DNA of 64,000 bases from Escherichia coli (GTDB lineage Bacteria; Pseudomonadota; Gammaproteobacteria; Enterobacterales; Enterobacteriaceae): assembly GCF_013315695.1 (NCBI RefSeq), contig NZ_CP054353.1. One strand, written 5' to 3'. Position 1 is the first letter of the stretch. Every line of letters begins with the position of its first letter. Shown here piece by piece: positions 15,001 to 18,000 of the stretch. The position numbers are program-made.

Positions 15001-18000
15001 ACTCGGTGCCGGTATTCAGTGGTAATGATCCATTAACTTAGTGTGACTAAGGGCAATTCTCTGATGAGGATTGCCCTTTTCTTTACCAGACATCTCCCTC
15101 CACCAAGAATTGGCCCTACCAATTCTTCGCTTATCTGACCTCTGGTTCACAATTCCCCAATTAAAACTCACATCAATGTTGCTAACACATAACATTTAGT
15201 TAACTATCCATTGTCATTATCCCTACACAACACAATTGGCAGTGCCACTTTTACACAACGTGTGACAAGGAGATGAGCAACAGACTCATTACACGGCGTG
15301 TGTGGACTGCAGGAGACCTGCAATGAATCTCTGGCAACAAAACTACGATCCCGCCGGGAATATCTGGCTTTCCAGCCTGATAGCATCGCTTCCCATCCTG
15401 TTTTTCTTCTTTGCGCTGATTAAGCTCAAACTGAAAGGATACGTCGCCGCCTCATGGACGGTGGCAATCGCCCTTGCCGTGGCTTTGCTGTTCTATAAAA
15501 TGCCGGTCGCTAACGCGCTGGCCTCGGTGGTTTATGGCTTCTTCTACGGGTTGTGGCCCATCGCGTGGATCATTATTGCAGCGGTGTTCGTCTATAAGAT
15601 CTCGGTGAAAACCGGGCAGTTTGACATCATCCGCTCGTCTATTCTTTCGATAACCCCTGACCAGCGCCTGCAAATGCTGATTGTCGGTTTCTGTTTCGGC
15701 GCTTTCCTTGAAGGAGCCGCAGGCTTTGGCGCACCGGTAGCAATTACCGCCGCATTGCTGGTCGGTCTGGGCTTTAAACCACTCTACGCCGCCGGACTGT
15801 GCCTGATTGTTAACACCGCACCAGTGGCATTTGGCGCGATGGGTATTCCGATTCTGGTCGCCGGGCAGGTAACAGGCATCGACAGCTTTGAGATTGGTCA
15901 GATGGTGGGGCGTCAGCTGCCGTTTATGACCATTATCGTGCTGTTCTGGATCATGGCGATTATGGACGGTTGGCGCGGTATCAAAGAGACGTGGCCTGCG
16001 GTCGTGGTTGCAGGTGGTTCGTTTGCCATTGCTCAATACCTCAGCTCTAACTTCATTGGGCCGGAACTGCCAGACATTATCTCTTCGCTGGTATCACTGC
16101 TCTGCCTGACGCTGTTCCTCAAACGCTGGCAACCAGTGCGCGTATTCCGCTTCGGTGACTTGGGGGCGTCACAGGTTGATATGACGCTGGCTCACACAGG
16201 TTACACGGCAGGTCAGGTGCTGCGCGCCTGGACACCGTTCCTGTTCCTGACCGCCACCGTAACGCTGTGGAGTATCCCGCCGTTTAAAGCCCTGTTCGCT
16301 TCAGGCGGTGCGCTGTATGAGTGGGTGATCAACATTCCGGTGCCGTACCTCGATAAACTGGTTGCCCGTATGCCGCCAGTGGTCAGCGAAGCGACAGCGT
16401 ATGCCGCCGTGTTTAAGTTTGACTGGTTCTCTGCCACCGGTACCGCCATTCTGTTTGCTGCCCTGCTCTCGATTGTCTGGCTGAAGATGAAACCATCTGA
16501 CGCTATCAGCACCTTCGGCAGCACGCTGAAAGAACTGGCTCTGCCCATCTACTCCATCGGTATGGTGCTGGCATTCGCCTTTATCTCGAACTATTCCGGT
16601 TTGTCATCAACACTGGCGCTGGCACTGGCGCACACCGGTCATGCATTCACCTTCTTCTCGCCGTTCCTCGGCTGGCTTGGTGTCTTCCTGACCGGATCGG
16701 ATACCTCATCTAACGCCCTGTTCGCCGCCCTGCAAGCCACTGCAGCACAACAAATTGGCGTTTCTGACCTGTTGCTGGTTGCTGCCAACACCACCGGTGG
16801 TGTCACCGGCAAAATGATCTCTCCGCAATCTATCGCTATCGCCTGTGCGGCGGTAGGCCTGGTGGGCAAAGAGTCTGATTTGTTCCGCTTTACTGTCAAA
16901 CACAGCCTGATCTTCACCTGTATGGTGGGCGTGATCACCACGCTTCAGGCCTATGTCTTAACGTGGATGATTCCTTAATGATTGTTTTACCCAGACGCCT
17001 GTCAGACGAGGTTGCCGATCGTGTGCGGGCGCTGATTGATGAAAAAAACCTGGAAGCGGGCATGAAGTTGCCCGCTGAACGTCAACTGGCGATGCAACTC
17101 GGCGTGTCGAGAAATTCACTGCGCGAGGCGCTGGCGAAACTGGTAAGCGAAGGTGTGCTGCTCAGTCGACGTGGCGGCGGGACGTTTATTCGCTGGCGTC
17201 ATGACACATGGTCGGAGCAAAACATCGTCCAGCCGCTGAAAACGCTGATGGCCGATGATCCGGATTACAGTTTCGATATTCTGGAAGCCCGCTACGCCAT
17301 TGAAGCCAGCACCGCGTGGCATGCGGCAATGCGCGCCACACCAGGCGAAAAAGAGAAAATTCAGCTTTGCTTTGAAGCAACGCTAAGTGAAGACCCGGAT
17401 CTCGCCTCACAAGCGGACGTTCGTTTTCATCTGGCGATTGCCGAAGCCTCACATAACATCGTGCTGCTGCAAACCATGCGCGGTTTCTTCGATGTCCTGC
17501 AATCCTCCGTGAAGCATAGCCGCCAGCGGATGTATCTGGTACCCCCGGTTTTTTCACAGCTGACCGAACAACATCAGGCAGTCATTGACGCCATTTTTGC
17601 CGGTGATGCTGACGGGGCGCGTAAAGCAATGATGGCGCACCTTAGCTTTGTTCACACTACCATGAAACGATTCGATGAAGATCAAGCTCGCCATGCACGC
17701 ATTACCCGCCTGCCTGGTGACCATAATGAGCATTCGAGGGAGAAAAACGCATGATTATTTCCGCAGCCAGCGATTATCGCGCCGCAGCACAACGCATTCT
17801 GCCGCCGTTCCTGTTCCACTATATGGATGGGGGGGCATATTCTGAATACACGCTGCGCCGCAACGTGGAAGATTTGTCAGAAGTGGCGCTGCGCCAGCGT
17901 ATTCTGAAAAACATGTCTGACTTAAGCCTGGAAACGACGCTGTTTAATGAGAAATTGTCGATGCCGGTGGCGCTAGGTCCGGTAGGTTTGTGTGGCATGT

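What the first reader, a model, noticed from the sequence alone, without database searches (positions are those of the whole stretch)
15105..15250. Two palindromic candidate LldR operators flanking the lldP promoter
Seen in sequence: aagaattgg-ccctacc-aattctt (15105..15127) and aattggcagtgccactt (15234..15250) share the AATTGG half-site. Established knowledge: LldR, a GntR-family regulator, controls lldPRD through two operator sites.
Basis: partly seen in the sequence, partly recalled or inferred. Interest (0 to 1): 0.2.

Follow-up and report, generated by a model that had tools for sequence, protein, structure and literature searches.

The report
Known LldR operators O1 and O2
These two short palindromes are the already-characterised binding sites (O1 and O2) through which the lactate sensor LldR switches the E. 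coli lactate-utilisation operon lldPRD off and on, so the finding is correct but ordinary.

Summary
The window is an E. coli chromosome. AATTGGCCCTACCAATT (15108..15124) and AATTGGCAGTGCCACTT (15234..15250) lie in the 297-bp gap upstream of lldP (15323), followed by lldR and lldD. Both 17-mers and their 126-bp spacing are identical to E. coli K-12. In K-12, published work lists exactly these two sequences as the LldR boxes of the lldP promoter, in agreement with the sites defined experimentally by Aguilera et al. 2008. They are the only two matches to AATTGG-N5-CCAATT with at most one mismatch in 64 kb (0.30 expected). In 58 lldP upstream regions from 11 named enterobacterial genera, both sites recur. 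TGG-N5-CCA is invariant, and the spacing is always 125 or 126 bp. The conserved unit is the inner 15-17 bp. The known mechanism is that LldR on O1 and O2 represses, probably by looping. With lactate, O1-bound LldR activates. An ArcA-box-like sequence over the -10 region lies between the operators. Novelty: already known. Interest: low.

The parts
15108..15124 (.). LldR operator O1, AATTGGCCCTACCAATT (high-affinity upstream site; also listed as a PdhR box)
   Evidence: Identical to K-12. Listed as an LldR box, 12/14 to consensus AAnTGGTCnGACCAnTT (PMC10272880). Quoted as the required LldR sequence (PMC3582500). Listed as a PdhR box, 13/14 (PMC7660256). It is a sharp conservation island: mean column conservation 0.957 against 0.44-0.48 in the 3 bp on either side, in 56 distinct enterobacterial promoters.
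15105..15127 (.).
   Evidence: Inverted repeat I5. The outer pairs 15105/15127, 15106/15126 and 15107/15125 are mostly non-complementary in other genera.
15234..15250 (.). LldR operator O2, AATTGGCAGTGCCACTT (downstream of the transcription start)
   Evidence: Identical to K-12. Its reverse complement AAGTGGCACTGCCAATT is listed as the second LldR box at lldP, 10/14. Mean conservation 0.90. TGG and CCA are invariant in 59 sequences.
15179..15184 (+). Probable -35 hexamer TTGCTA (TTGCCA in K-12)
   Evidence: Inferred from the sequence: 17-bp spacer to AACTAT. (G/A)TTGC is conserved across genera. Not found by the consensus scan because the -10 is weak.
15202..15207 (+). Probable -10 hexamer AACTAT (AACCAT in K-12)
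   Evidence: Inferred from position relative to the start site at 15213. It lies in a highly conserved block.
15213..15213 (+). Inferred lldPRD transcription start (+1), 110 nt upstream of the ATG
   Evidence: From my recollection of the abstract of Aguilera et al. 2008 (paper not held): start site 110 nt upstream of the ATG, O1 at -105..-89, O2 at +22..+38. With the ATG at 15323 these three numbers reproduce 15108..15124 and 15234..15250 exactly. That internal consistency supports the recollection.
15190..15204 (-). ArcA-box-like sequence GTTAACTAAATGTTA overlapping the -10 region
   Evidence: One mismatch from GTTAATTAAATGTTA; only hit in the window at up to 2 mismatches, 0.11 expected. The consensus is from memory (Liu and De Wulf 2004). 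ArcA repression of lldPRD and an ArcA operator between O1 and O2 are stated.
15049..15078 (+). Intrinsic-terminator-like hairpin ending the upstream gene, 30 bp before O1
   Evidence: 13-pair stem followed by TTCTTT. Shared with K-12.
15323..16978 (+). lldP, L-lactate permease
   Evidence: NCBIfam NF007740 equivalog, 1199.5 bits against cut-off 918. RefSeq annotation.
16978..17754 (+). lldR, the GntR/FadR-family regulator that binds O1 and O2
   Evidence: NCBIfam NF007741 equivalog, 498 bits against cut-off 311. 255/258 identical to K-12 LldR, with residues 1-123 identical.
17751..18941 (+). lldD, FMN-dependent L-lactate dehydrogenase
   Evidence: NCBIfam NF033901, 822.8 bits against cut-off 550.

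Best explanation
The two 17-bp sequences are the operators O1 (15108..15124) and O2 (15234..15250) of the E. coli lldPRD promoter. LldR, encoded two genes downstream, binds both as dimers. Without lactate, occupancy of both sites on the same face of the helix (126 bp, about 12 turns) represses transcription, probably through an LldR-LldR DNA loop enclosing the core promoter. With L- or D-lactate, LldR changes conformation, repression is lost, and LldR at O1 is needed for activation. Shown here: sequence identity to the K-12 sites, the cognate regulator, the genomic position, and deep conservation of the sites and their spacing. Taken from the literature: binding, the dual role and looping. Looping itself is inferred from phasing mutants and has not been seen directly.
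For: The operators and spacing are identical to K-12. The same two sequences are published as LldR boxes consistent with Aguilera 2008, and this promoter is the strongest gSELEX peak and gel-shift target. The O1 17-mer is quoted as required for LldR binding. The two-site repression/activation model is described; one search also reports that shortening the O2 to -10 distance by 10 bp abolished induction. LldR is 99% identical to K-12 LldR, and the whole N-terminal half is identical. The lldP-lldR-lldD context is confirmed. These are the only two matches at up to 1 mismatch in 64 kb, against 0.30 expected. In 58 upstream regions retrieved with a pattern in the lldP coding start (so not selected on the operators), O1 and O2 are present throughout and TGG-N5-CCA is invariant. 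The O1-O2 spacing is 126 bp in 50 and 125 bp in 8, while the distance from O2 to the ATG varies from 86 to 92. O1 is a sharp conservation island.
Against: No binding experiment exists for this particular strain. The primary paper with the binding and operator-mutation experiments could not be read here, so the exact boundaries rest on secondary citations plus my recollection of its abstract. O1 centred near -97 is unusually far upstream for a simple activator contact, so the activation step is mechanistically unresolved. Anzai 2023 describes LldR mainly as an activator.
Confidence: 0.97

Rival explanations
1. O1 is primarily or additionally a PdhR (pyruvate-sensing GntR/FadR paralogue) operator, so the lactate operon is repressed by PdhR through the same palindrome.
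For: PdhR gSELEX lists AATTGGccctACCAATT at yibL/lldP as a PdhR box (13/14), and lldPRD mRNA rose 3.3-fold in a pdhR mutant (PMC7660256). LldR's second-best family match is PdhR. Anzai 2023 repeats the PdhR control.
Against: As I recall the abstract of Aguilera 2008, an lldP-lacZ fusion was unaffected in a pdhR mutant. LldR binding and lldR-dependent lactate induction are shown directly. PdhR would explain only O1, not O2 or the fixed spacing. This is at most an added layer, not a replacement.
Confidence: 0.3
2. The O1 palindrome and the hairpin at 15049..15078 are stems of a minus-strand small RNA related to Salmonella STnc380, and their conservation reflects RNA structure rather than protein binding.
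For: Rfam RF02055 STnc380 matches 15040..15149 on the minus strand over the full model (28.9 bits, E 0.001). It also matches K-12 (36.4 bits) and Citrobacter werkmanii (34 bits), and the model's first stem is AAUUGGUAGGGCCAAUU, which is O1.
Against: All scores are far below the family's gathering score of 60. There is no sigma-70-like promoter on either strand in 15000..15340. There is no T-run after the hairpin on the minus strand (sequence). The inner arm pairs never vary, so there is no covariation, and the outer positions vary without keeping complementarity. This reading does not explain O2 or the fixed O1-O2 spacing. No paper in the library describes STnc380.
Confidence: 0.04
3. The two palindromes are chance similarities in an AT-rich intergenic region.
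For: At 2 mismatches the pattern is no more frequent than chance in the window: 6 hits against 4.6 expected.
Against: At up to 1 mismatch only these two sites exist, against 0.30 expected. They are conserved in position, core sequence and spacing across 11 named genera. They coincide with the published sites.
Confidence: 0.005

Closest known systems
E. coli K-12 lldPRD promoter operators O1 and O2 (Aguilera et al. 2008, J Bacteriol 190:2997; LldR box of Anzai et al. 2023)
   Same: Both 17-mers are identical in sequence, with the same 126-bp spacing, the same distance to the lldP ATG (-215 and -89), and the same downstream lldP-lldR-lldD genes.
   Different: Nothing differs in the operators. 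The core promoter between them has a few substitutions relative to K-12 (TTGCTA vs TTGCCA; AACTAT vs AACCAT). Upstream, this strain carries a 1666-aa YadA-like adhesin gene where K-12 has yibL and extra intergenic sequence.
PdhR box (AATTGGTnnnACCAATT-type FadR-subfamily operator)
   Same: O1 fits the PdhR box at 13 of 14 positions and was recovered by PdhR gSELEX. It has the same TGG-N5-CCA palindrome architecture as other FadR-subfamily sites.
   Different: The cognate regulator encoded in the operon is LldR, and induction by lactate depends on lldR. O2 is not listed as a PdhR box.
Two-operator looping repressors that enclose the core promoter (e.g. GalR OE/OI, LacI O1/O3) - comparison from general knowledge
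   Same: Two dyad-symmetric operators lie upstream and downstream of the start site, an integral number of helical turns apart. Repression is sensitive to phasing (citing Aguilera 2008).
   Different: LldR belongs to the GntR/FadR family, stays bound in the presence of its ligand, and doubles as an activator from the upstream site.

Membership tests
LldR operators of the lldPRD promoter (O1/O2) | Sequence identity to the experimentally bound K-12 sites | tested here: met
   The pairwise alignment with MG1655 shows both 17-mers and everything from O1 to O2 except 6 substitutions, with no indels. The published boxes match.
LldR operators of the lldPRD promoter (O1/O2) | Fit to the LldR-box consensus AAnTGGTCnGACCAnTT | tested here: met
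   O1 fits 12/14 and O2 10/14 (counted by hand; the same values appear in Table 1 of PMC10272880). O1 is the only hit in the window at up to 3 mismatches. This consensus alone is not statistically distinctive: 2.5 hits are expected by chance at that threshold.
LldR operators of the lldPRD promoter (O1/O2) | Position: one site upstream of and one downstream of the lldP transcription start, directly upstream of lldP | tested here: met
   The sites lie at -215 and -89 from the ATG. The literature places the sites on either side of the start. The exact numbering -105..-89 and +22..+38 is from memory and fits the coordinates exactly.
LldR operators of the lldPRD promoter (O1/O2) | Cognate regulator LldR encoded in the same operon with an intact DNA-binding domain | tested here: met
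   NF007741 equivalog, 498 bits. 255/258 identical to K-12 LldR, with the N-terminal half identical.
LldR operators of the lldPRD promoter (O1/O2) | Evolutionary conservation of both sites and of their helical phasing | tested here: met
   In 58 upstream regions, TGG-N5-CCA is invariant at both sites and the spacing is 126 (50 regions) or 125 (8 regions). O1 is a conservation island.
LldR operators of the lldPRD promoter (O1/O2) | Direct LldR binding and lactate-dependent regulation in this strain | not testable with these tools
   Needs EMSA or footprinting and reporter assays. Expected to hold because the sites and the regulator are the same as in K-12.
Rfam RF02055 STnc380 sRNA | Score at or above the family gathering threshold (60 bits) | tested here: not met
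   28.9 bits in the window, 36.4 in K-12, 34 in Citrobacter.
PdhR box | Match to the PdhR consensus and recovery in PdhR gSELEX | tested here: met
   The O1 sequence is listed at 13/14 at the yibL-lldP spacer. The in vivo relevance is disputed: Aguilera 2008 found no effect, from memory.

The most novel reading that the evidence does not exclude
The O1 palindrome might serve two purposes. It would be the LldR (and PdhR) operator on DNA and also the 5' stem-loop of a conserved minus-strand small RNA of the STnc380 type that starts between O1 and the lldP core promoter. LldR occupancy would then gate an antisense or divergent transcript as well as lldPRD. Separately, the invariant TTCACA block at about -67..-62 could be the site of an unidentified third regulator, for example one mediating the unexplained glucose repression of this promoter.
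Probability: 0.04. Interest if true: 0.35.

Novelty: already known. Interest (0 to 1): 0.06.

Why it matters
It adds nothing new biologically. These operators were defined in 2008 and are routinely used as parts in lactate biosensors. The value of the check is positive control: a reader working from raw sequence located both operators to the base. The comparative data give modest extras. The conserved unit is the 15-17-bp core, not the 23-bp palindrome. The O1-O2 distance is held at 125-126 bp across at least 11 enterobacterial genera while flanking distances drift. That is independent evolutionary support for the phasing-dependent (looping) model and a useful constraint for biosensor promoter design.

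Tried and rejected
(1) I tried to read the primary paper (Aguilera 2008) by DOI and by PMC id. It is not held, and neither is Lynch and Lin 1996 on ArcA footprints. I relied on secondary papers that quote the sequences.

(2) The sigma-70 consensus scan found no promoter in 15000..15340, so the -35 and -10 hexamers are assigned by position and conservation only.

(3) The published LldR-box consensus with 3 mismatches is not distinctive by itself: 1 hit against 2.5 expected. The half-site pattern AATTGG-N5-CCAATT at up to 1 mismatch is distinctive.

(4) I considered CRP for the conserved TTCACA block. The would-be left half (TGACC, 6-bp spacing) is poor and not conserved, so I did not assign it (by eye).

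(5) A literature search for STnc380 returned only a prefix match to STnc3800.

(6) I rejected a terminator or RNA-hairpin reading of O1: there is no T-run, no covariation, and the outer arms are not conserved.

Full report
**What is in the sequence**

- The repeat finder reports a perfect inverted repeat with 9-nt arms (15105-15113 / 15119-15127).
- It also pairs the two 17-mers 15108-15124 and 15234-15250, both as direct repeats (76% identical) and as inverted repeats (82% complementary). They are 126 bp apart, start to start.
- Within the 17-mers, O1 pairs at 6 of 8 arm positions and O2 at 7 of 8, so both are dyad-symmetric.
- The half-site pattern AATTGG-N5-CCAATT with at most one mismatch occurs only at these two places in the 64-kb window. 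Shuffles give 0.30 expected.
- At two mismatches the pattern is no better than chance: 6 hits against 4.6 expected. The signal therefore lies in the near-perfect matches and in their co-location.

**Context**

The window is an Escherichia coli chromosome. The 451 bases around the finding are 100% identical to strain MSB1_4I, and the region is present in 5420 of 5426 complete E. coli genomes.
- Upstream is a 1666-aa YadA-like trimeric autotransporter gene (10025..15025).
- It is followed by a terminator-like hairpin at 15049..15078.
- Downstream are lldP (15323..16978), lldR (16978..17754) and lldD (17751..18941), then trmL and cysE.
- LldP and LldR match their NCBIfam equivalog models, and LldD its NCBIfam model, far above the cut-offs.
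- LldR is 255/258 identical to K-12 LldR, and every residue of the N-terminal half, which includes the DNA-binding domain, is identical.

**Identity with the known operators**

Aligned with K-12 MG1655, the whole stretch from the hairpin to the lldP ATG is collinear. Both 17-mers are identical, and there is no indel between them.
- Anzai et al. 2023 (PMC10272880) found the lldP promoter to be by far the strongest LldR gSELEX peak.
- The same paper lists AAtTGGcCctACCAaTT and AAgTGGcactgCCAaTT as its two LldR boxes. The second is the reverse complement of the window's O2.
[quoted passage not shown] 2008.
- PMC3582500 quotes AATTGGCCCTACCAATT as the 17-nt sequence that LldR requires.
- I could not read Aguilera 2008 itself. 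From memory, its abstract gives a start site 110 nt upstream of the ATG, O1 at -105..-89 and O2 at +22..+38.
- With the ATG at 15323 these numbers give +1 = 15213, O1 = 15108..15124 and O2 = 15234..15250. This is exactly the two 17-mers, which makes the recollection credible.
- Held papers independently say the sites lie on either side of the start site, and that the segment from +1 to -80 lies between the operators.

**Comparative evidence**

I scanned one genome per species for a degenerate pattern encoding the first ten residues of LldP. This retrieval does not depend on the operators. It gave 57 loci, mostly named Citrobacter, Escherichia, Salmonella, Klebsiella, Raoultella, Enterobacter, Kosakonia, Pluralibacter, Superficieibacter, Trabulsiella and Yokenella.
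- Wherever enough upstream sequence was available, an O1-like site lies at -211..-218 and an O2-like site at -86..-92 from the ATG.
- TGG and CCA are invariant in all 58 O1 sites and all 59 O2 sites.
- The O1-O2 distance is 126 bp in 50 cases and 125 bp in 8, and never anything else. The distances to the ATG drift by up to 7 bp.
- In an alignment of 56 distinct sequences, O1 is a sharp island. Its mean column conservation is 0.957, against 0.44 and 0.48 for the three bases on either side and 0.71 for the whole spacer.
- O2 scores 0.90 within a broadly conserved core-promoter and leader block.
The functional unit is therefore the inner 15-17 bp.

**Mechanism**

The mechanism is the published one.
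- LldR dimers occupy O1 and O2.
- Without lactate, both sites are needed for repression. This probably works through a loop formed by LldR-LldR contacts across 126 bp, which is 12 helical turns at 10.5 bp per turn.
- Lactate changes LldR's conformation, and the O1-bound protein is then required for activation.
- Shown here: sequence identity, the regulator, the position, and conservation of sites and spacing.
- Taken from the literature: binding and the dual role.
- Looping itself has only been inferred from phasing mutants. The evolutionary fixation of the spacing found here is independent support for a phasing constraint.
- Between the operators lie a probable -35 (TTGCTA, 15179..15184) and -10 (AACTAT, 15202..15207), both inferred from position and conservation.
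- An ArcA-box-like sequence GTTAACTAAATGTTA lies on the minus strand at 15190..15204, overlapping the -10. This is consistent with the known anaerobic repression of lldPRD by ArcA.

**Rivals**

- **PdhR.** O1 is also listed as a PdhR box (13/14), with 3.3-fold derepression of lldPRD in a pdhR mutant. As I recall, Aguilera 2008 saw no PdhR effect. This would be an extra layer on O1, not an alternative to LldR.
- **STnc380 small RNA.** A sub-threshold Rfam match covers 15040..15149 on the minus strand (RF02055, 28.9 bits against a gathering score of 60, E 0.001). Its model stems correspond to O1 and to the terminator hairpin. No promoter-like site, no T-run and no covariation support an RNA reading. 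The family's conserved 'stem' is more simply explained by the operator.
- **Chance.** This is excluded by the statistics, the conservation and the published binding.

**Verdict**

The feature is already known, and its interest is low. It is useful mainly as a validated positive call.

Noticed in passing
window 15040..15149 (minus strand): Sub-threshold but full-length match to Rfam RF02055 STnc380, a Salmonella candidate sRNA (28.9 bits, gathering score 60, E 0.001). K-12 scores 36.4 bits and Citrobacter werkmanii 34 bits. The model's first stem is the LldR O1 palindrome and its second is the terminator hairpin, so this Rfam family appears to be built on the spacer upstream of lldP and to overlap a protein operator.
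   Followed up: partly
window 15190..15204 (minus strand): ArcA-box-like GTTAACTAAATGTTA, one mismatch from the 15-bp consensus recalled from memory, overlapping the probable -10. It is the only such hit in 64 kb (0.11 expected) and lies in a block conserved across genera.
   Followed up: partly
window 15146..15151: TTCACA, about -67..-62 from the inferred start, is almost invariant across 56 enterobacterial lldP promoters, while its flanks vary. No regulator is assigned. It is a poor CRP site because the partner half-site is weak and not conserved.
   Followed up: partly
window 15249..15255: TTTTACA, overlapping the last two bases of O2 and running just past it, is nearly invariant across genera. 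This extends the conserved block beyond the 17-bp operator. The reason is unknown.
   Followed up: no
window 15251..15264 and 15289..15302: The lldP 5' leader contains two copies of a 14-nt repeat, TTACACAACGTGTG and TTACACGGCGTGTG, 38 nt apart. Each contains a CACA-N3-TGTG palindrome. The function is unknown.
   Followed up: no
window 10025..15047: A 1666-aa YadA-like (EhaG-type) trimeric autotransporter gene sits immediately upstream of the lldP regulatory region. K-12 instead has yibL plus about 75 bp of extra intergenic sequence that looks like a REP element by eye (not tested). Homology with K-12 resumes at about 15047, just before the hairpin. About 1270 of the E. coli genomes with a match cover less than 80% of the query; the examples listed begin at window 15047 and lack the adhesin gene.
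   Followed up: partly
L004 (CALXDF010000207.1) and L055 (CACSKA010000004.1): An lldP promoter with E. coli-identical operators and distances occurs in a MAG labelled Oscillospiraceae. One with O1 and O2 variants of the kind seen in Citrobacter and Salmonella occurs in an assembly labelled Chryseobacterium sp. 18061. These are probably contaminating or mis-binned contigs.
   Followed up: no
e.g. NZ_CP076705.1 49961..50106: 35 matches to the lldP 5' end lie on E. coli plasmids. The one example listed is 87.5% identical and covers the coding start only, not the operators. This suggests plasmid-borne lactate permease paralogues without the chromosomal LldR control region.
   Followed up: no
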